From a virus: a stretch of 64,000 nucleotides of DNA. Each line of letters begins with the position of its first letter. Position 1 is the stretch's first letter. The notes beneath the pieces are model-generated. The model was not told where the DNA came from, made no database searches, and saw only the letters and a list, made by a program, of their open reading frames with translations. A program made the position numbers and the translations under genes. Shown here in pieces: positions 4,118 through 64,000 of the stretch. The stretch lies in the IMG/VR virus record IMGVR_UViG_3300035181_001055, positions 1 to 64,000 of that record; one strand, given 5' to 3'.

Positions 4118-5938
4118 ATGGAGATTACAAAAAAGGTTAAACATCATACAGGAATTTTGATGGATCTTTCGCGGGATTCGTTTTTTGATGAATTAGGCTT
4201 AAGACGTCTGAAAGATTCTTATATGAGATCAGATGAATCAAGTCCTCAAGAAAGATTTGCATATGTTAGTGCGCAATTTGCATCCGATGCTGAACATGCG
4301 CAGCGCCTATATGAGTACTCAAGCAAACACTGGCTTAGTTACTCAACCCCTATCCTTTCATTCGGTCGAAATGCTAAAGGAATGCCTATTTCATGTTTCT
4401 TGAACTACCTGGAAGATACTGCTGATGGACTAGTTAATAACTTAAGCGAAACCTGCTGGCTTAGTATGATAGGCGGCGGTGTCGGAATCCACGTTGCGAT
4501 TCGCGGATGTGATGAAAAATCGGTAGGCGTCATGCCGCATCTGAAAGTATATGACGCCGCGTCGCTGGCATATAAACAAGGGACCACTCGTCGTGGCAGC
4601 TTTGCCGCTTACTTGCCGATTGACCATCCAGACATTATCCAGTTCATTGAGATGCGCAAACCGACGGGCGATCAAAATATGCGCACTTTGAACCTCAACC
4701 ATGCCATTAGTATTTCCGACAAGTTCATGGAGCTAATTGAGCGCTGCATGCTCGATCCTAATGCTGATGATACATGGGAGCTGATCCAGCCTAATAACGG
4801 AAAGGTCGTTGAAACTGTTTCGGCGCGCGAGCTCTGGCAAAGGATTCTCGAAATCAGAATGCAGACTGGCGAGCCTTACCTATGGTTCAATGATACAGCT
4901 AACCGAGCATTGCCTGACTATCAGAAAGCGAAAGGGCTGAAAATTCATGGCAGCAATCTTTGCTCTGAAATCTCTCTCGTGACTTCTCCAGAAAGAACTG
5001 CTGTTTGCTGCCTCAGTTCAGTTAACCTCGAGTACTGGGACGATTGGAAAGATAATAAGCAATTCCTGCCAGACATCCTTGAAATGCTCGACAATGTTCT
5101 AACATACTTTATTGAAAATGCGCCAGAAACTATTGAAAGAGCGAGATACAGCGCTATGAGAGAGCGAAGCGTAGGCGTCGGTGCACTCGGATTTCATGCT
5201 CTTCTTCAAAAGAAAAACATCGCATTCGAAAGCGTTTTGGCAAAGAGCCTTAACATTCAGATTTTTTCTAATATTCGAACTCAGCTAGACGAGGCCAATG
5301 TTGCTTTGGCGGAAAAACGAGGGCCGTGCCCTGATGCAGCAGATGCAGGCGTCATGAAACGATTGACTCATGTCATGGCAATCGCGCCTAATGCTTCTTC
5401 GAGTATCATTATGGGAAATACATCTCCTAGTATCGAGCCTTATGCAGCAAACGCATATCGCCAGGATACTAGTTCTGGCGCTTACTTGACAAAGAATCGT
5501 TTCTTGGATGAGATCATCAAAAAAGAATCCGCTAAACACGGCGAAGGGTGGTATGAAGATACTTGGGCTAGCATCATCGCAAATGATGGGTCTGTACAAC
5601 ACCTGGATTGGATGGACGAAAATACGAAATGGGTTTACAAGACTGCTTTTGAGATTGACCAACGATGGATTATTGAGCATGCTGCCGACCGTCAGGCTTA
5701 CGTGGATCAGGCGCAAAGTGTAAACCTATTCCTTTTACCAGATGTTAACATAAAGTACCTCCATGCAGTCCATTTCATGGCATGGAAGAAGGGTCTGAAA
5801 TCTCTGTACTACTGCCGAAGCACGAAATTGCGAAAGGCTGACAGAGTTGGGCAAAGTGTAGAGCGCAAGAGAATTGAAGATGAAATTGATATGGCATCTC
5901 TCGCTGAAGGAAACGAATGCATCGCTTGTGAAGGATGA
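4118..5938 (+). CDS. nrdA: Ribonucleotide reductase class Ia alpha subunit
   Basis: ISCFL, GSNLCSEI catalytic motif, IAPNASSS, C-terminal CIACEG redox pair. Confidence 0.96.
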   Translation: MEITKKVKHHTGILMDLSRDSFFDELGLRRLKDSYMRSDESSPQERFAYVSAQFASDAEHAQRLYEYSSKHWLSYSTPILSFGRNAKGMPISCFLNYLEDTADGLVNNLSETCWLSMIGGGVGIHVAIRGCDEKSVGVMPHLKVYDAASLAYKQGTTRRGSFAAYLPIDHPDIIQFIEMRKPTGDQNMRTLNLNHAISISDKFMELIERCMLDPNADDTWELIQPNNGKVVETVSARELWQRILEIRMQTGEPYLWFNDTANRALPDYQKAKGLKIHGSNLCSEISLVTSPERTAVCCLSSVNLEYWDDWKDNKQFLPDILEMLDNVLTYFIENAPETIERARYSAMRERSVGVGALGFHALLQKKNIAFESVLAKSLNIQIFSNIRTQLDEANVALAEKRGPCPDAADAGVMKRLTHVMAIAPNASSSIIMGNTSPSIEPYAANAYRQDTSSGAYLTKNRFLDEIIKKESAKHGEGWYEDTWASIIANDGSVQHLDWMDENTKWVYKTAFEIDQRWIIEHAADRQAYVDQAQSVNLFLLPDVNIKYLHAVHFMAWKKGLKSLYYCRSTKLRKADRVGQSVERKRIEDEIDMASLAEGNECIACEG

Positions 5939-6927
5939 ACGATATGGCAAAAAAGAAACTCAAACTAACTGATGAACGCAACTACTATAAACCTTTCACT
6001 TATCCATGGGCTTTTGAAGCGTTCATGGCAAGTGAGCAGATGCATTGGCTATGGACAGAAGTTCCTATGATTGATGATGTGAGCGACTGGAAGAACAAGC
6101 TGACAGCCGATGAAAAGACATTTTTGACGCACATCCTTCGCTTTTTCACGCAAGGCGATATTGATGTTTCGGGTGCATATGTTAGAAACTATCTGCCTGC
6201 ATTTCCTCAGCCTGAAATTAGAATGATGTTGAGCAGTTTTGCTGCTCGTGAAGCGGTTCACATCGCCGCATACTCGTATCTGATTGAAACGCTGGGTTTA
6301 CCTGAAACGACGTATAACGAATTCTTGCAGTATCAGGAGATGAAAGACAAGCATGAATTCGTTTCTGAGTACGGCAGACAAGATAAAGGGACGATTGCAC
6401 AGCAGATTGCTGTATTCTCTGCTTTCACCGAAGGTATGCAATTGTTCTCGTCCTTTATCATGCTGCTCAACTTTGCACGATTCGGGAAGATGAAAGGCAT
6501 GGGACAAATCATTGCATGGAGCATCGCTGATGAATCGCTGCATTGCGAGTCGATGACTAAACTGTTCCGTGAGTTCATCAAGGAGAATAAAGATATTTGG
6601 ACTGATGATCTCAAGGCACAAATCTACTCCATTGCCGAGAAGATGGTTGACTTGGAAGACAAGTTTATCGACTTGGCATATGGCGTCAACGAGATGGAGG
6701 GCTTGCCGTCGGCTGATGTCAAGAAGTATATTCGTTACATTGCTGACCGACGTTTGATTTCCCTCGGCATGAAAGGCATATTCAAGGTCAAGAAGAACCC
6801 TATGCCTTGGGTCGACGGTATGCTCGGCGCAACCCACACAAACTTCTTTGAGCAACGGGTGGTGGACTACGCCAAGGGCGCGCTAACTGGATCGTGGGAA
6901 GAGATCTGGGCTCAAAAAAACGGTTGA
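5935..6927 (+). CDS. nrdB: Ribonucleotide reductase class Ia beta subunit
   Basis: FFTQGD, EAVHIAAY, EGMQLFSSF, DESLH di-iron ligands. Confidence 0.96.
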   Translation: MNDMAKKKLKLTDERNYYKPFTYPWAFEAFMASEQMHWLWTEVPMIDDVSDWKNKLTADEKTFLTHILRFFTQGDIDVSGAYVRNYLPAFPQPEIRMMLSSFAAREAVHIAAYSYLIETLGLPETTYNEFLQYQEMKDKHEFVSEYGRQDKGTIAQQIAVFSAFTEGMQLFSSFIMLLNFARFGKMKGMGQIIAWSIADESLHCESMTKLFREFIKENKDIWTDDLKAQIYSIAEKMVDLEDKFIDLAYGVNEMEGLPSADVKKYIRYIADRRLISLGMKGIFKVKKNPMPWVDGMLGATHTNFFEQRVVDYAKGALTGSWEEIWAQKNG

Positions 6928-12042: not shown

Positions 12043-12708
12043 ATGAAGAACAAGCAATTCGAAAAGAATGTAGAAACGGCGAAACGGTTTGTGAAGCAGT
12101 GGAAAGCGACGCATCGGCTGACGAAGCGCGGAAATTATGTGCCGCACAGTTATGAAGACGGCGAAAAAGCGCTGAGCTGGTGGGACGACGTCTACTTCCC
12201 GCTAGGGTCGCAACTGGTCATCGTCAACTGGACGCATCCGCGCATGCGCTATCGCGATGCAGTTGCGGACGTGGCATATGACGAAATGGTCAAGCGGCGT
12301 CCGCCGCCGAAGTATGATTCGTTTGAAAAGTCGACGCCAATCTATAAGAAAGTGGGCAATGGCAAGCGCAAGCGAGTCATTGCGCGGCGGCTGGCGCCTT
12401 CATTTTCAAGCTCAGTAAAGGAATGGAATGATGAGTGGCGTCAGCTTAAAAAAGAAATGCTACTCAAATCTGATATTATAATTCGTCCTAGCATGACTGT
12501 CAAGCAGATGTCACATGCTCGCGTCGTCGACATTTGCATGCCAATTGAAGTCAAGAGCCAAGCCGATGTCGAGGATTTGGCTACGTATGTCAGGGCTGTA
12601 TTGACTGGGGTCGCCGCATTCGAGTCATGCTATCCTGCTGACTACAGCTATGGCTGCAATGATTGGGCTCGGGACATGGAATACTTGGACAAGATGCTCG
12701 GGGTGTGA
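12043..12708 (+). CDS. Hypothetical protein
   Basis: 221-aa ORF with GAGG RBS. Confidence 0.75.
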   Translation: MKNKQFEKNVETAKRFVKQWKATHRLTKRGNYVPHSYEDGEKALSWWDDVYFPLGSQLVIVNWTHPRMRYRDAVADVAYDEMVKRRPPPKYDSFEKSTPIYKKVGNGKRKRVIARRLAPSFSSSVKEWNDEWRQLKKEMLLKSDIIIRPSMTVKQMSHARVVDICMPIEVKSQADVEDLATYVRAVLTGVAAFESCYPADYSYGCNDWARDMEYLDKMLGV

Positions 12709-59903: not shown

Positions 59904-60548
59904 ATGGCAACTAATCCATATTTCAACCACCTGAAAAATAAATCTGAACAGTCTTTCTATGAAGACATAGTGATTGAGAGTATCAAGAATGCAGGGATAG
60001 ACGTCTTTTATATTCCTAGAGAATATCTAGAAATTGACCCAGTTCTTGGCGAACCTAACCAATCGAGATTCAATTCTGCATTCAGTATTGAAGTTTATTT
60101 ACAAGAAGTGACTGGTTACGGCGGCGAAGGCGACTTGATGTCGAAATTCGGATTGCAGATGACAGACACTGCTACATTTATGATGAGCAGAAAGAGATTC
60201 AATGACTTGAACATCCCTAATAGAATCAGACCTCGAGAAGGTGATCTGATTTACGTAGGTGACACTGAAAATTCAGGCTATGGCTCATTCACGAACAGCT
60301 TTTTTGAAATAAAGTACGTTGAGCATGAATCGCCTTTTTGGCAATTAGGAAGATACTTTGTGTTTGAATTGAAATGTCAATTGTTCACATACTCGTATGA
60401 GAAATTCAATACTGGTAATTCCGCAATTGATAATCTGAACAATAACGACAACGCAGCCGATCTTTCGGTGGCGATAAACAGTGCTCTTGAAACTAAGAAG
60501 AGCACTCTAATTGATTTCACAGAAAAGAATCCTTTCGGTGACCTATAA
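59904..60548 (+). CDS. gp14: Neck protein
   Basis: G.DV.YIPRE, G..DL.SKFG, RP.EGDLIY, FEIKYVEHE.PF.QLG, EKNPFG. Confidence 0.95.
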   Translation: MATNPYFNHLKNKSEQSFYEDIVIESIKNAGIDVFYIPREYLEIDPVLGEPNQSRFNSAFSIEVYLQEVTGYGGEGDLMSKFGLQMTDTATFMMSRKRFNDLNIPNRIRPREGDLIYVGDTENSGYGSFTNSFFEIKYVEHESPFWQLGRYFVFELKCQLFTYSYEKFNTGNSAIDNLNNNDNAADLSVAINSALETKKSTLIDFTEKNPFGDL

Positions 60549-61273
60549 TGCCACGTCCAGTATTTTATTACAATACAATCAAGAATTTGATTGTCACTTT
60601 TGGAACTGTCTTTGATGACATCAGATTTATCAACGATGAGGGGATCGAAATAAAAGTCCCTATACATTATGCGCCGAAAGAAAAATTCGTTTCATATTTC
60701 ACTGAAAAGCCAGACTTTGACCAACTCGACATTGAAATTCAGTTACCAAGAATGGCATTTGAAATCAGCGGTCTTAATTTTGCATCTAATAGATTCGTCA
60801 ATCCTTTGAGCAGAATTAAGGATCCAACGATAGATGAAAAGAAGTACATGTTCAGCAGAATTCCGTATGATTTTCAATTCAATCTATATGTTGCCACTAA
60901 GAAATTTGAAGATAGCTTGAAAATTGTCGAGCAAATAGTTCCGTTCTTCACACCTGAATTGAATGTGACGATAAAGGATAAAGATGATTTTAGTCTTCAA
61001 ACTGACGTGCCTATCGTTTTGAATAGTGTCAGCTTCGATATCCAATATGAAGGATCTTATGACACGAAAAGAACTATCATGTGGACACTAGGATTCACAC
61101 TCAAAGGATGGCTATACGGAGATGTGAAGCAACAAAATGTCATCAAGGAAACGATAACAAATCTCACGCAGCTTGACATCAACAATAAATTTGAGACTTT
61201 GATAAGTGAAGTTGTGCCTAGAACTGCAAGCGAAAATGATCCGCACGAAATTGTGGATAGAACGGTCGAATGA
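60548..61273 (+). CDS. gp15: Tail sheath terminator
   Basis: FGT.F.DI, VPIHYAPKEK, LPRM.FE, QI.PFF.P, WTL.F. Confidence 0.93.
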   Translation: MPRPVFYYNTIKNLIVTFGTVFDDIRFINDEGIEIKVPIHYAPKEKFVSYFTEKPDFDQLDIEIQLPRMAFEISGLNFASNRFVNPLSRIKDPTIDEKKYMFSRIPYDFQFNLYVATKKFEDSLKIVEQIVPFFTPELNVTIKDKDDFSLQTDVPIVLNSVSFDIQYEGSYDTKRTIMWTLGFTLKGWLYGDVKQQNVIKETITNLTQLDINNKFETLISEVVPRTASENDPHEIVDRTVE

Positions 61274-61746
61274 TGGATAAGATTTCACAAGCGCTAGGAA
61301 CTGCTACTGGTGTAGAAAATGATGTTGAAGCTTCAACAAATGTAGCACCATATGTAAAGAATGAAGTTATAGATTTGCCAGATAAATATCAAGAAATTAA
61401 AAACAATCTAGGTGAAGATTATGACTTTGCGAGAAGTAACTTAAGAAAAGTGCTAGAACATGCGATGTCACTGCTACCTAATGCAATATCATTAGCACGT
61501 GAAGCAGAAAGTCCAAGGATTTACGAAAGCACATCGGTTTTTATTAAAACGATTGCTGATATAAATAAAGATCTGCTTGAAATATCTGAACGTAATTTGA
61601 AACAAGGTTCTGGTAATAATAAAATCAATAGTCCACAAGAACAATCAGGTGTCGTAAATAATAACGCGATATTCGTTGGTACAACTGATGATTTATTCGC
61701 AAAATTACTTCAAGTTAGCAACGTAATTGATGATGGAAGTTTTTAG
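61270..61746 (+). CDS. gp16: Terminase small subunit
   Basis: DYDFAR.NL, ESPR.YE, NNNAIFVG.T.DL. Confidence 0.88.
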   Translation: MMDKISQALGTATGVENDVEASTNVAPYVKNEVIDLPDKYQEIKNNLGEDYDFARSNLRKVLEHAMSLLPNAISLAREAESPRIYESTSVFIKTIADINKDLLEISERNLKQGSGNNKINSPQEQSGVVNNNAIFVGTTDDLFAKLLQVSNVIDDGSF

Positions 61747-61852
61747 ATCTAATAAGAACCTAGACCCTTGCGTCAAATGTTTTTAAAGATCTAGATATTT
61801 CAAGCGATTTAATAGCGTTAGATCTTATCTACACTAGCTAATGTTACAAGTT

Positions 61853-61914
61853 AGCGACTCGCTTCACTCGTCGCTGCGTTCGTTGAATTGACTCGCTTCA
61901 CTCGTCAATTCAAC
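61853..61914. repeat. Two hairpins with an identical 11-nt loop (TCGCTTCACTC)
   Basis: AGCGAC/GTCGCT stem 61853-75; GTTGAATTGAC/GTCAATTCAAC stem 61882-914. Confidence 0.85.
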
Positions 61915-61974
61915 TCACGCATGATTTTTATTTGTGCTAAATTTTATCTAGAATTAATTTAATACATAGTATTC

Positions 61975-62368
61975 CACGGGGAGAGTTACATATCTCTCTG
62001 GCTCCCGTTACCTCGAATGCGCACCAACGCATTCATCGCCTGTGATTCATGATCGACATTCGTTTTGAACGCATGCCTACTGATGAATCCTGCCGTCTCA
62101 ATGTTCTTGACTTTTGCGGATCAGTCTTGAGCATCTACCAGCAAATGCTGTCGGCACCTTTGTCGCCCGTATGGGCCAAGATAAGTAGCAAGAACCAGTA
62201 CTACACTACTTACCTACCGCTTTCTGTCAACAACTGATAACCGTGGTCGTTGATCGCTTAGCTGCTGCCTTAGGCTTACTTGCGGTCTCCCTAATAGGCT
62301 TGTGACTTGAGGGAGTATCACTTAAGCATGATGATCGTACGCGCGTGCGCGCGACTGGTTTGTATCTT
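61975..62368 (-). ncRNA. Candidate large structured non-coding RNA
   Basis: Downstream of a perfect antisense sigma70 promoter; at least seven helices visible by eye; no convincing ORF. Confidence 0.5.
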
Positions 62369-62374
62369 CTTCAT

Positions 62375-62403
62375 ATTATATTGACATCTCTCCGCGATGT
62401 CAA
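62375..62403 (-). promoter_or_regulatory. Antisense sigma70 promoter
   Basis: TTGACA (62403-62398)-17 nt-TATAAT (62380-62375); TTGACATC/GATGTCAA inverted repeat spans the -35 and spacer. Confidence 0.85.
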
Positions 62404-62421
62404 CCTTTTTTTTGCGTCACT

Positions 62422-62429
62422 TATAAATA
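62422..62429 (+). promoter_or_regulatory. Late promoter (TATAAATA)
   Basis: Perfect consensus 30 nt upstream of the gp17 ATG. Confidence 0.8.
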
Positions 62430-62459
62430 CGAAAGTGTTTAACAATTTTCGTGATCACG

Positions 62460-64000
62460 ATGGCCGCTGTTTCTGATGTTCAGATTGATAGGACAGATCT
62501 ATGTTATAACGGGAATATCAAACTAAAGAAATCTGGTGTTAGCATCCCGTTCACGCAAGAACAAGTCGAAGAATATATCCGTTGCAAACGTGATATTGTA
62601 TATTTCATCAAGAATTATGTCAAGATCGTTTCTCTTGATCATGGACTAGTTCCGTTTGAATTGTATGATTTTCAAGAGGAAATGGTCAACACATTTCGAG
62701 ATAATCGTTATGTGATTTGTTTGCTTGCTCGACAGATGGGTAAAACGACAACGGTTGCTGCTTACTTGCTGTATGAGGCCATTTTCAAGAAAAATATGCG
62801 AATGGCGGTTTTAGCTAACAAAGGCGACACTGCTATAGAAATTCTCGATCGAATAAAGAAGATGTTTGAAGAACTGCCGTGGTTCTTAAAGCCAGGAGTT
62901 CAAGAATGGAATAAGAAATCGATTGAATTGAGTAATGGTTCGAAAATCATTTCTGCCGCAACAAGCTCAAGCTCCATTCGCGGTCAATCGATGAACATCA
63001 TATATCTCGATGAGCTTGCGTTCATTCAAAATGACGTCGAGTTCTTTGCTTCAACATACCCTGTCATTTCTTCAGGTAAGACGACTAAGGTTCTTATCAC
63101 ATCTACGCCTAACGGCATGAACCTTTTCTACAAGTTATGGGCTGACGCTGAAGCTGGTCGAAATAGTTTTGTTCCTAGGAAGTACTCTTGGCGTTACCAT
63201 CCGCATAGAGATGAAAAATGGAAAGAAGAAACGCTCAGAAACATTTCTCAGAAACAATTTGATCAAGAATATGAGCTGGAATTTTTTGGCAGCTCGGATA
63301 CACTTATAAGTGGCAACAAACTTCAGCAATTAACATTCATCGATCCTATTAAAACTGATACTATATTCAATGTTTATGAAGAGCCTGTTGAAGGGAAGAG
63401 TTATGTAGTGACAATTGATGTTTCTGAAGGGATTGGGAAAGACTATAGCGTAATCAATGTTTTCGACATTTCAATTCAGCCTTACAAGCAAGTCGCCGTT
63501 TACCGAAACAATATCATACCACCTTTGATGCTCGTTGATGTGGCGTATAAAATTTTGACTATGTATAATGAAGCTTATTGCATAGTTGAGTCGAATAGTA
63601 TCGGCAAAATTGTTGCTGACGGTCTTTACTTCGACCTAGAGTATGAGAATATGCTCACGTCAAAAGCAAAAGACGGAGAGAATGTGGTAAGCATCAGCGG
63701 AGAAGTTGTTGGGTTGAGGCAAACTAAAAAAACGAAGTTGATTGGTTGTAGTGCATTGAAAACTATGATTGAAAGCGGCACATTAGTAGTTACTGACTTC
63801 ATGACTGTGCAAGAACTTAGCACATTTGTTAAGCGTCATCATACATATCAAGCTGAGGACGGCAAAACAGATGACATAGTCATGACTTTGGTTTCGTTTT
63901 GCTGGTTCACCACTCAACCGTATTTCGAAGAACTGACTGATGTTAACGTTCGAGCTCTTATAAAGAGCAATTATATGAAAATGGAAGAAAACAATCATCT
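62460..64000 (+). CDS. gp17: Terminase large subunit (3' end outside the window, so absent from the ORF track)
   Basis: YNGN..LKK, ARQMGKTTT Walker A, YLDELAF Walker B, TSTPNG, DVSEG.GKDYS, DDIVM. Confidence 0.97.
   Translation, partial: MAAVSDVQIDRTDLCYNGNIKLKKSGVSIPFTQEQVEEYIRCKRDIVYFIKNYVKIVSLDHGLVPFELYDFQEEMVNTFRDNRYVICLLARQMGKTTTVAAYLLYEAIFKKNMRMAVLANKGDTAIEILDRIKKMFEELPWFLKPGVQEWNKKSIELSNGSKIISAATSSSSIRGQSMNIIYLDELAFIQNDVEFFASTYPVISSGKTTKVLITSTPNGMNLFYKLWADAEAGRNSFVPRKYSWRYHPHRDEKWKEETLRNISQKQFDQEYELEFFGSSDTLISGNKLQQLTFIDPIKTDTIFNVYEEPVEGKSYVVTIDVSEGIGKDYSVINVFDISIQPYKQVAVYRNNIIPPLMLVDVAYKILTMYNEAYCIVESNSIGKIVADGLYFDLEYENMLTSKAKDGENVVSISGEVVGLRQTKKTKLIGCSALKTMIESGTLVVTDFMTVQELSTFVKRHHTYQAEDGKTDDIVMTLVSFCWFTTQPYFEELTDVNVRALIKSNYMKMEENNH

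What the first reader, a model, noticed from the sequence alone, without database searches (positions are those of the whole stretch)
61975..62403. Antisense promoter driving a densely structured ~400-nt RNA between gp16 and gp17
The terminase genes are usually adjacent, but here 710 non-coding nt separate them. A perfect TTGACA-17-TATAAT fires leftward. Helices seen by eye (plus coordinates): 62287-92/62310-15; a 10-bp stem 62179-88/62206-15 whose loop (62189-95) is complementary to 62103-09, a possible pseudoknot; 62165-68/62173-76; 62139-43/62146-50; 62044-50/62083-89; 62015-21/62028-34; and 61981-85/61994-98 closed by CGGG/CCCG. I cannot assign it to a known RNA class. It could be an ornate phage ncRNA, a replication primer RNA, or an antisense brake on terminase expression.
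Basis: partly seen in the sequence, partly recalled or inferred. Interest (0 to 1): 0.8.

Follow-up and report, generated by a model that had tools for sequence, protein, structure and literature searches.

The report
New ornate RNA between terminase genes
The 700-base gap between the two DNA-packaging genes of this uncultured T4-like phage holds, on the opposite strand, a gene for a roughly 390-base, intricately folded RNA of a family found in no RNA catalogue; related phages keep it at the same spot, and its job is still unknown.

Summary
A perfect TTGACA-17-TATAAT promoter (62403..62375, minus strand) drives a ~390-nt RNA (62368..~61977).

I found nine homologues, one truncated, all next to gp16 in uncultured T4-like phages whose gp16 is 45-100% identical.
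- In six, both promoter hexamers are kept while the 17-nt spacer differs completely.
- On a 10-sequence alignment, 89 base pairs in 17 helices are 95.6% paired, and 57 pairs show compensatory changes. No shuffle or slid control comes close.
- Three tertiary pairings also covary: the 5' end with the H7 loop, an H6-H10 kissing loop, and a junction with the 3' hairpin loop.
- G.U pairs outnumber A.C 66 to 6, so the minus strand is the folded one.
- Unpaired positions are more conserved than paired ones.

Nothing matches in Rfam 15, ARAGORN, cultured phages or prokaryote genomes.

My reading is a stand-alone early gene for a new class of compact, trans-acting RNA (an RNP scaffold, oligomer or ribozyme), not an antisense brake. 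Function is inferred only. Primer-RNA, packaging-RNA and antisense roles remain open.

The parts
62375..62403 (-). Sigma-70 early promoter: -35 TTGACA 62403..62398, 17-nt spacer, -10 TATAAT 62380..62375. The A-tract upstream (62406-62413 on the minus strand) is UP-element-like.
   Evidence: 12 of 12 matches. Both hexamers are kept in win, L002, L104, L117 and L112 (L110 has TATTAT), and all spacers differ. The genome has 25 such perfect promoters against about 0.05 expected. The overlapping plus-strand terminator-like hairpin is destroyed in L002.
61977..62368 (-). The structured RNA. The inferred start is about 62368 (7 nt after the -10). The conserved core runs from ACAAACC at 62363 to the end of the 3' hairpin at about 61977 (~390 nt).
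   Evidence: Homologues in nine other contigs. Alignment A5: 17 helices, 95.6% paired, 57 of 89 pairs with compensatory changes. Neither end has been mapped experimentally.
62354..62360 (-). PK1 5' arm (AACCAGU). It pairs with the H7 loop at 62193-62199 (ACUGGUU).
   Evidence: Five pair combinations across the homologues, 100% paired, 5 of 7 pairs with changes on both sides.
62287..62315 (-). H3 hairpin (62310-15/62287-92) with an almost invariant 17-nt loop, CAAGUCACAAGCCUAUU.
   Evidence: 4 of 6 pairs covary. Loop invariance is seen in A5.
62217..62285 (-). H4 domain. H4 (62282-85/62217-20) encloses H5 (62273-75/62267-69), H5b (62264-65/62256-57) and H6 (62246-53/62227-34).
   Evidence: H4 has 2 of 4 covarying pairs, H6 5 of 8, H5b 1 of 2. 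All are 100% paired.
62182..62212 (-). H7 hairpin (62206-12/62182-88). Its loop supplies the 3' arm of PK1.
   Evidence: 6 of 7 pairs covary. L110 and L112 are shifted by one column in the MAFFT alignment but form perfect stems when read by eye.
62240..62243 (-). H6 loop arm of a kissing-loop contact with the H10 loop (62117-62120).
   Evidence: The middle pair is G-C, U-A or A-U. A fourth pair is G-C, C-G or U-A in four lineages. Whether the contact is within one molecule or between molecules cannot be told.
62092..62176 (-). Central region: H8 (62174-76/62165-67), the invariant GACAAAGGYGCCGA, H9 (62147-50/62139-42), H10 (62124-35/62100-11) and the invariant GAGACGGCA.
   Evidence: H10 has 12 of 12 pairs covarying, H8 3 of 3, H9 2 of 4. 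GCCG may pair with CGGC (62152-55/62092-95) or with GGYG (62037-40). Both options involve bases that do not vary or vary on one side only, so the choice is unresolved.
62011..62087 (-). H11 (62083-87/62046-50, with an AGUA/GAKC loop-E-like internal loop and a variable inner hairpin), the junction UCACAGGYGAUG, H12 (62027-34/62015-22, loop with invariant GG), and the 3' arm of a long-range helix (62011-14, pairing with 62178-81).
   Evidence: H11 has 4 of 5 plus 3 of 3 pairs covarying, and H12 7 of 8. The long-range helix has one compensatory pair and three one-sided changes. It competes with the two base pairs at the foot of H7.
61976..62008 (-). H13 3' hairpin (outer 62004-08/61976-80, inner 61994-97/61982-85). 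Its loop bases 61988-90 pair with the junction at 62041-43 (PK2).
   Evidence: The inner stem has five sequence versions. PK2 switches between A-U and G-C in three sequences.
61916..61975 (-). A/U-rich, poorly conserved linker after the core. It is 55-90 nt long in all homologues.
   Evidence: It may be a processing site, a stretch trimmed after transcription, or a DNA unwinding element. This is inferred.
61854..61914 (-). Two hairpins (61882-61914 and 61854-61874) with the identical 11-nt loop GAGUGAAGCGA in RNA sense. The loop reads as tandem sheared G.A pairs, a G-C pair and a 5-nt loop.
   Evidence: The stems covary between win and L002. The same motif follows the RNA in L104 and L117, where the G3-C9 pair becomes A-U. 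L108, L110 and L112 carry a UGAG-stem-YGAA version. No U-tract follows. The motif makes structural sense only on the minus strand.
62422..62429 (+). TATAAATA, a T4-type late promoter that gives gp17 its own start, divergent from the RNA promoter.
   Evidence: Read from the sequence. CATAAATA is kept in L002. That TATAAATA is the T4 late promoter is established knowledge.

Best explanation
This is a stand-alone gene for a previously uncatalogued family of large, compactly folded non-coding RNA.

Shown:
- A consensus sigma-70 promoter of the kind this phage uses for its early genes points leftward.
- The ~390 nt behind it are conserved in nine other contigs of one clade of T4-like phages.
- They fold on the minus strand into about 17 helices, tied together by a 5'-end/loop pseudoknot, a loop-loop contact and a junction/loop pseudoknot.
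- Unpaired bases are conserved more strongly than paired ones.

Inferred:
- Host RNA polymerase makes the RNA early in infection.
- Both ends are tucked into structure (PK1 at the 5' end; H13 and PK2 at the 3' end), so the RNA is stable.
- The A/U-rich tail is cut or trimmed, or transcription ends at the G.A-motif hairpins.
- The folded particle acts in trans through its invariant exposed loops and junctions. It would bind a protein or other copies of itself, as an RNP scaffold or oligomer like ROOL, GOLLD or pRNA, or it would catalyse a reaction. It would not act by base-pairing with terminase mRNA.

Which partner or reaction is involved is unknown.
For: Promoter. Hexamers conserved with a diverged spacer. 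The genome holds 25 perfect promoters of this type.

Homologues beside gp16.

Structure: 95.6% of cells paired, 57 of 89 pairs with compensatory changes, covariation score 0.533 against 0.226 in shuffles (0 of 500 reach it) and at most 0.127 when partners are slid.

Tertiary pairs: 97% paired, 8 of 14 covarying.

Strand: 66 G.U cells against 6 A.C cells.

Conservation: 89 of 202 unpaired columns are invariant against 49 of 178 paired columns. Between win and L002 the RNA is 93% identical, against 90% and 86% for the flanking genes.

The conserved core overlaps neither gp16 nor gp17, and gp17 has its own late promoter. There is one copy per genome.
Against: - There are no expression data. All sequences are metagenomic and the host is unknown.
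- The ten sequences represent only about six independent lineages.
- No protein partner was found: no RT, L7Ae or RRXRR gene in the 75%-complete genome.
- The fixed position between terS and terL, the A/T-rich stretch and the repeat arrays next to it could point to a cis role in replication or packaging.
- The L118/L120/L121 subclade lacks the consensus promoter directly upstream.
- The 3' end is undefined and there is no classical terminator.
Confidence: 0.55

Rival explanations
1. Packaging-linked RNA. The RNA works with the terminase, the portal or a pac site, as phi29 pRNA does. The covarying H6-H10 loop-loop pairing would then be intermolecular and build a ring.
For: The RNA always sits between terS and terL. 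Arrays of TCTAGA/GATC-type repeats that could be terS sites lie next to it. Earlier scan notes report unrelated antisense RNAs in the same slot of other T4-like phages.
Against: T4-type packaging is reconstituted without RNA (established knowledge). The promoter is early, not late. T4-like core gene order is so stable that position alone is weak evidence. There is no similarity to pRNA.
Confidence: 0.12
2. Replication-origin transcript. The promoter fires into an A/T-rich unwinding element and iteron-like repeats. The RNA forms an R-loop that primes DNA synthesis, as with ColE1 RNA II or the T4 oriF/oriG transcripts.
For: A strong promoter is followed by a 55-90-nt, very A/T-rich spacer in every homologue. 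Beyond it lie tandem or inverted repeats, for example five perfect 26-bp units in L120.
Against: Primer RNAs are not known to need 17 covarying helices, three tertiary contacts and 89 invariant unpaired positions. The repeats differ in sequence, number and orientation between homologues. The A/T-rich part lies after the conserved RNA rather than within a region that the RNA could hybridise to specifically.
Confidence: 0.12
3. Antisense or transcriptional-interference brake on terminase expression. Early leftward transcription collides with, or pairs with, rightward late transcripts running from gp16 towards gp17.
For: The unit is convergent with gp16 and has no clear terminator, so read-through into gp16 antisense is possible. 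Any late read-through from gp16 would be fully complementary to the RNA.
Against: The conserved part overlaps no coding sequence. Selection acts on the fold, through compensatory changes, and on unpaired bases. An antisense pairing function does not require either. gp17 has its own late promoter downstream of the unit. The hairpins and the spacer between the RNA and gp16 vary freely.
Confidence: 0.1
4. RNA component or remnant of a mobile element: an omega-RNA-like guide RNA, or the leader of a homing-nuclease cassette that has lost its nuclease.
For: The locus is a hotspot for selfish elements. L110 has an RRXRR ORF and a DUF559-like ORF, L112 an intein in gp17, and L002 a duplicated terL fragment with a remnant of the RNA gene.
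Against: No nuclease gene accompanies the RNA in most homologues or anywhere in the own genome. There is no HEARO match. The 5' end is conserved and paired, so there is no 5' guide. There is one copy per genome, and no ORF remnants in the long spacers.
Confidence: 0.05
5. A very large riboswitch-like sensor that controls read-through into the downstream hairpins and gp16 antisense.
For: Highly conserved junction nucleotides, a kissing loop and a loop-E-like motif are typical of aptamers. Hairpins follow the RNA.
Against: At about 390 nt and 17 helices it is far larger than known aptamers. No gene lies downstream on that strand. The hairpins lack U-tracts, and no alternative pairing with the core was seen.
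Confidence: 0.04

Closest known systems
GOLLD and ROOL RNAs (large ornate RNAs frequent in phages and prophages; PMC12286853)
   Same: A large, many-helix, pseudoknotted non-coding RNA carried by a phage. It has no associated ORF and an unknown function. It has loop-loop contacts that could, as in those RNAs, be intermolecular.
   Different: There is no sequence or structure match. It is smaller (~390 nt). It is not next to tRNA genes, the nearest being about 34 kb away. It sits in a fixed slot in the late structural module and has a consensus early promoter.
phi29 packaging RNA (pRNA)
   Same: A phage RNA made from an early promoter and genetically tied to the packaging machinery. It has a short covarying loop-loop pairing.
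   Different: There is no match to the Rfam pRNA model. It is about three times larger. The host phage is T4-like, whose packaging motor is known to work without RNA. Oligomerisation is untested.
cabRNA of staphylococcal phages (PMC10686824)
   Same: A roughly 400-nt structured RNA arising at the terS-terL boundary of a phage.
   Different: cabRNA lies within the terS/terL coding region, shows no conservation between phages, and is known only as a trigger of CBASS. Here the RNA is an antisense, promoter-driven, intergenic gene with deep structural conservation.
Antisense structured RNAs reported by this scan in the terS-terL gap of Stenotrophomonas T4-like phages (notes e1-5766753, e1-5766761)
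   Same: Same slot, same orientation, own promoter, pseudoknotted, absent from Rfam.
   Different: Neither of my two covariance models nor nhmmer finds any similarity in the phage YB07 gap. It is therefore a different family, or one diverged beyond detection.
ColE1 RNA II and T4 oriF/oriG origin transcripts
   Same: A strong promoter producing a structured RNA that runs into an A/T-rich stretch.
   Different: Those RNAs are not conserved as elaborate tertiary folds. No R-loop or origin evidence exists here.

Membership tests
Any Rfam 15 family (4227 models) | Covariance-model score at or above the family's gathering threshold | tested here: not met
   Window 61000-63000 at E up to 10 gives only chance snoRNA-like hits of 20 bits or less. 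Six homologous loci give nothing at gathering thresholds, and nothing recurs at the RNA at E up to 5.
tRNA / tmRNA | ARAGORN detection of a tRNA-like domain and tag reading frame | tested here: not met
   One search finds six tRNAs elsewhere and nothing near 62 kb.
Bacterial RNase P RNA | Match to the RNase P models; 5' and 3' ends paired in P1; P4 long-range helix | tested here: not met
   No Rfam hit. The 5' end pairs with an internal hairpin loop and not with the 3' end. Short resemblances such as ACAGAAA and GGUAAC are in the wrong order (by eye).
IscB/IsrB omega-RNA (HEARO) | HEARO model match | tested here: not met
   No hit.
IscB/IsrB omega-RNA (HEARO) | Adjacent IscB/IsrB (RRXRR/RuvC) gene and a variable guide at the 5' end | tested here: not met
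   There is no RRXRR gene in the own genome, though the control genomes did not ring either. The gene is present only in L110 and L111, on the other side of gp16. The 5' end is conserved and paired.
GOLLD / ROOL | Model match; size of 500-800 nt; frequent neighbourhood of tRNA genes | tested here: not met
   The size here is ~390 nt.
GOLLD / ROOL | Homo-oligomeric cage assembly | not testable with these tools
   This needs cryo-EM or SEC-MALS. A covarying loop-loop pairing exists, but whether it is intra- or intermolecular is unknown.
phi29 pRNA | pRNA model match; 120-174 nt; phi29-like phage | tested here: not met
   The phage is T4-like.
phi29 pRNA | Intermolecular 4-bp loop-loop pairing that covaries | tested here: inconclusive
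   The H6-H10 loops pair over 3-4 bp with covariation. Whether this is within or between molecules cannot be told.
cis-antisense regulatory RNA | Transcript overlaps the target mRNA on the opposite strand | tested here: not met
   The conserved RNA (62368..61977) lies entirely between gp16 (ends 61746) and gp17 (starts 62451). Read-through beyond the hairpins is not excluded.
Origin primer RNA (ColE1 RNA II / T4 ori type) | Promoter followed by an A/T-rich unwinding element | tested here: met
   (sequence features only).
Origin primer RNA (ColE1 RNA II / T4 ori type) | Persistent RNA-DNA hybrid that primes replication | not testable with these tools
   This needs experiments.

The most novel reading that the evidence does not exclude
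A new class of large functional RNA machine in T4-like phages. It would be either a ribozyme or a self-assembling or protein-binding particle that takes part in DNA packaging or in takeover of the host. It would be made early, from a dedicated gene kept between the two terminase genes. Other T4-like clades may carry unrelated RNAs in the same slot, which would imply a general, unrecognised RNA requirement at this locus.
Probability: 0.2. Interest if true: 0.95.

Novelty: categorically new. Interest (0 to 1): 0.78.

Why it matters
Natural RNAs of this size and complexity are rare: 17 helices, three tertiary pairings, and invariant junctions. Almost every such RNA whose function is known is a ribozyme or the core of an RNP, such as RNase P, group I and II introns, tmRNA or omega-RNA. 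The remaining orphans (OLE, GOLLD, ROOL, raiA) have proved structurally surprising.

This one is a compact, well-defined candidate. It has a clear promoter, a testable secondary and tertiary structure model, and a fixed genomic context in the best-studied phage architecture. If it acts in packaging, replication or host takeover, it would add an RNA player to T4-type biology, where none is known. If it is a ribozyme or a cage, it is a new fold. It also shows that the supposedly empty gaps in late operons of uncultured T4-like phages can hide early-expressed RNA genes.

Tried and rejected
- blastn of the gap against 50,697 cultured phage records found no match.
- The hairpin-loop pattern in IMG/VR gave only chance hits in high-GC phages.
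- The 3'-domain pattern in JGI metagenome contigs gave one hit, L115, which is a ribosome-binding site and gene start: a chance match.
- Two scans used a mistyped pattern, with 20 N instead of 19, and are void. The corrected viral scan found only L120. Absence from prokaryote genomes therefore rests on one 23-base pattern.
- Homology with the RNA in the same slot of Stenotrophomonas phage YB07 was rejected by nhmmer and by two covariance models. A quick fold showed no shared architecture.
- A possible pairing of GUGA (before H3) with UCAC in the H3 loop has one compensatory case, in L108, but is not alignable in L110 and L112. I left it out.
- A helix H2 between H1 and H3 is not consistent across homologues.
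- Resemblances to 23S rRNA, SRP and RNase P motifs recalled from memory are short, out of order and unsupported by Rfam. I dismissed them.
- I looked for partner genes (RT, L7Ae, RRXRR) in the own genome and found none.
- I looked for ORF remnants in the long L120 spacer and found none of 45 aa or more inside it.
- The plus-strand terminator reading of 62381-62413 was rejected because the hairpin is not conserved while the promoter hexamers are.

Full report
**Setting.** The window is the first 64 kb of a 126.7-kb IMG/VR virus record that is about 75% complete. Genes 13, 14, 15, 16 and 17 lie in T4 order on the plus strand. ORF 60548-61273 is gp15 (PF16724, 219 bits). ORF 61270-61746 is the small terminase gp16 (PF11053, 23.4 bits, just under the cut-off, but in the right place). 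The ORF starting at 62451/62460 is the large terminase gp17 (Terminase_6N and 6C). The nearest cultured relatives by gp17 are Stenotrophomonas T4-like phages at only 54% identity, so this is an uncultured clade. The gap between gp16 and gp17 is 704-713 nt. In 43 other T4-like loci fetched through gp17, the upstream ORF abuts gp17: the median distance is about -32 nt and the maximum 400 nt. G+C rises to 0.50 inside it against about 0.36 around it.

**Promoter.** TTGACA-17-TATAAT lies on the minus strand at 62403..62375. It overlaps a plus-strand hairpin followed by a run of T that the scan scored as terminator-like, so strand had to be settled by comparison.
- The closest relative is L002, whose gp16 protein is identical. 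There both hexamers are intact, the 17-nt spacer is almost wholly different, and the plus-strand hairpin is destroyed.
- The same holds in L104, L117, L110 (TATTAT) and L112. Each has GGTTGACA or TGTTGACA, an unrelated 17-nt spacer and TATAAT, 6-12 nt before the conserved ACAAACC.
- The L108 contig ends just upstream of a TATAAT.
- The genome carries 25 perfect TTGACA-N16-18-TATAAT sites against about 0.05 expected, 23 of them on the plus strand in the early region. This is evidently how the phage writes its early promoters.
- gp17 has its own T4-type late promoter, TATAAATA at 62422-62429, divergent from the RNA promoter.
- One subclade (L118, L120, L121) lacks the consensus directly upstream. 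It has instead a conserved AAGGAUGAYSAGAA leader and promoter-like repeats further up.

**Homologues.** The gap has no match among cultured phages. Searching for gp16 relatives and fetching their contigs gave RNA homologues immediately downstream of gp16 in L104, L108, L110, L112, L117 and L118, and a partial one in L106. A conserved-block pattern added L120 and the truncated L121 from IMG/VR. The gp16 proteins of these phages are 45-69% identical to the window's. The RNAs are 60-80% identical, and 93% in L002. Between the window and L002 the RNA (93%) is better conserved at the nucleotide level than the flanking coding DNA: 90.3% for genes 13-16 and 85.6% for gene 17. Two covariance models, for the 5' and 3' domains, find one copy in the phage's own genome. 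They find none in 97 other T4-like loci. A 23-base pattern finds nothing in one genome for each of 185,579 prokaryote species.

**Structure.** I named a structure of 89 pairs in 17 helices on the ten-sequence alignment A5, which is in RNA sense.
- 95.6% of cells form standard pairs.
- 57 pairs show changes on both sides.
- The covariation score is 0.533. Column shuffles give 0.226, and none of 500 reaches the observed value.
- Sliding the partners by 1-3 columns gives at most 0.127 and 34-44% pairing.

Individual helices are well supported. H10 covaries at all 12 pairs, H12 at 7 of 8, H6 at 5 of 8, H3 at 4 of 6, and H11 at 7 of 8. H1, H8, H9 and the inner part of H11 change length and loop sequence freely, so they are peripheral.

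Three tertiary pairings are also supported.
- PK1 joins the first conserved bases (62354-60) to the H7 loop (62193-99). It has five different sequence versions and no mismatch.
- The H6 and H10 loops pair over 3-4 bp. The central pair is G-C, U-A or A-U.
- The junction after H11 pairs with the H13 loop, switching between A-U and G-C.

A long-range helix (62178-81 with 62011-14) closes the 3' half. It has one compensatory pair and competes with two base pairs at the foot of H7. The invariant GGYGCCGA can pair either with ACGGC or with GGYG, and the data do not decide.

G.U cells outnumber A.C cells 66 to 6, so the fold belongs to the minus strand. Of the columns filled in at least nine sequences, 44% of unpaired ones are invariant against 28% of paired ones. 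That pattern is expected of an RNA whose loops and junctions build a tertiary core or a binding surface. H11 carries an AGUA/GAKC internal loop resembling the loop-E/bulged-G motif, read by eye.

Seven of eight coincide with H3, H7, H8, H9, H11, H12 and H13. The proposed pseudoknot of the H7 loop with 62103-09 is no better than chance. Those bases are the 3' strand of H10.

**Ends and surroundings.**
- The start is inferred at about 62368.
- After H13 (about 61977) conservation stops, and a 55-90-nt A/U-rich linker follows in every homologue.
- Then come one or two strong hairpins. In the window these are 61882-61914 and 61854-61874. They share the loop GAGUGAAGCGA and have stems that covary with L002.
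- Read in RNA sense, that loop is two sheared G.A pairs, a G-C pair (A-U in one L117 copy) and a small loop. L108, L110 and L112 have a UGAG-stem-YGAA version.
- On the plus strand the motif would be U.C/C.U mismatches, so these hairpins probably belong to the same leftward transcript. They would act as a 3' stabiliser, a terminator without a U-tract, or a protein site.
- Between them and gp16 lies a variable region rich in AGATCT/TCTAGA-type motifs. In relatives it expands into arrays.
- Many metagenome contigs break here.

**What it is not.**
- No Rfam 15 family matches, in the window or in six homologues. There is no tRNA or tmRNA.
- It is not RNase P-like: the ends do not pair.
- It is not omega-RNA-like: there is no HEARO match, no nuclease gene, and the 5' end is conserved and paired.
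- The RNA that earlier notes of this scan describe in the same slot of Stenotrophomonas T4-like phages is not detectably related.
- No conserved ORF lies in the gap. The 62-aa plus-strand ORF of the window is broken in L002.

**How it most likely works.**

Shown: a selected early-type promoter; a selected, strand-specific, knotted fold; stronger conservation of unpaired than of paired bases; no overlap with either terminase gene; a single copy at a fixed position.

Inferred: early transcription by host polymerase; a stable particle with both ends buried; action in trans through its invariant surfaces. I put about 0.9 on 'a genuine independent structured-RNA gene of a new family' and about 0.55 on the trans-acting reading as a whole.

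The rivals are as follows.
- A packaging-linked RNA (0.12) would explain the position, and the loop-loop contact if that contact is intermolecular. But T4-type motors work without RNA and the promoter is early.
- An origin or primer transcript (0.12) would explain the A/T-rich stretch and the repeats, but not the elaborate fold.
- An antisense or interference brake (0.10) is disfavoured, because nothing conserved overlaps a target.
- A remnant of a mobile element (0.05) and a giant sensor (0.04) are remote.

**Limits.** There are ten sequences from about six lineages, all metagenomic. There are no transcript data, the host is unknown, and the 3' end is undefined. MAFFT misplaces L110 and L112 by one column in H7 and several sequences in H1. 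Two database scans were wasted on a mistyped pattern.

Noticed in passing
window 61746-61850 and 61945; L120:6408-6538; L108:4112-4710; L104:3458-3720: The spacer between gp16 and the RNA is full of AGATCT/TCTAGA-type motifs. In relatives these expand into arrays: five perfect 26-bp tandem units in L120, seven ~38-nt units in L108, and a ~270-nt palindrome in L104. They could be small-terminase (pac) sites or iterons.
   Followed up: partly
window 12475-12503 (minus strand): The only other perfect minus-strand TTGACA-N-TATAAT in the genome lies inside the plus-strand ORF 12043-12708, pointing antisense. The other 23 perfect promoters are on the plus strand, mostly between 2.7 and 26 kb.
   Followed up: no
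L002:3483-4332: The closest relative carries a truncated second copy of the gp17 N-terminus (250 aa, 62% identical) between the RNA promoter and the true gp17 (95% identical). A ~25-nt remnant of the RNA gene follows it. This is a recombination scar at the locus.
   Followed up: partly
L110:2343-3455 and 5661-6857; L112:5022-7459: Selfish elements cluster around the locus in relatives. L110 has an RRXRR-domain ORF between gp15 and gp16 and a DUF559/MTES_1575-like ORF before gp17. L112 has an intein-like insert in gp17.
   Followed up: no
L105, L106, L107, L109, L111, L113, L114, L116, L119, L121: Ten metagenome contigs end 40-600 nt after gp16 or inside the RNA gene. This suggests that repeats or strain-level variation break assemblies here.
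   Followed up: no
L118:1842-2180, L120:7230-7500, L121:314-640: One subclade replaces the consensus promoter by a conserved AAGGAUGAYSAGAA leader. Upstream of it are repeated promoter-like units containing TATAAATA.
   Followed up: partly
window 61763-61784: A short hairpin (GAC..GUC; GACGC..GCGUC in L002) followed by a T-run lies just after the gp16 stop on the plus strand. It may end the late gp13-16 transcript before it reaches the RNA gene.
   Followed up: no
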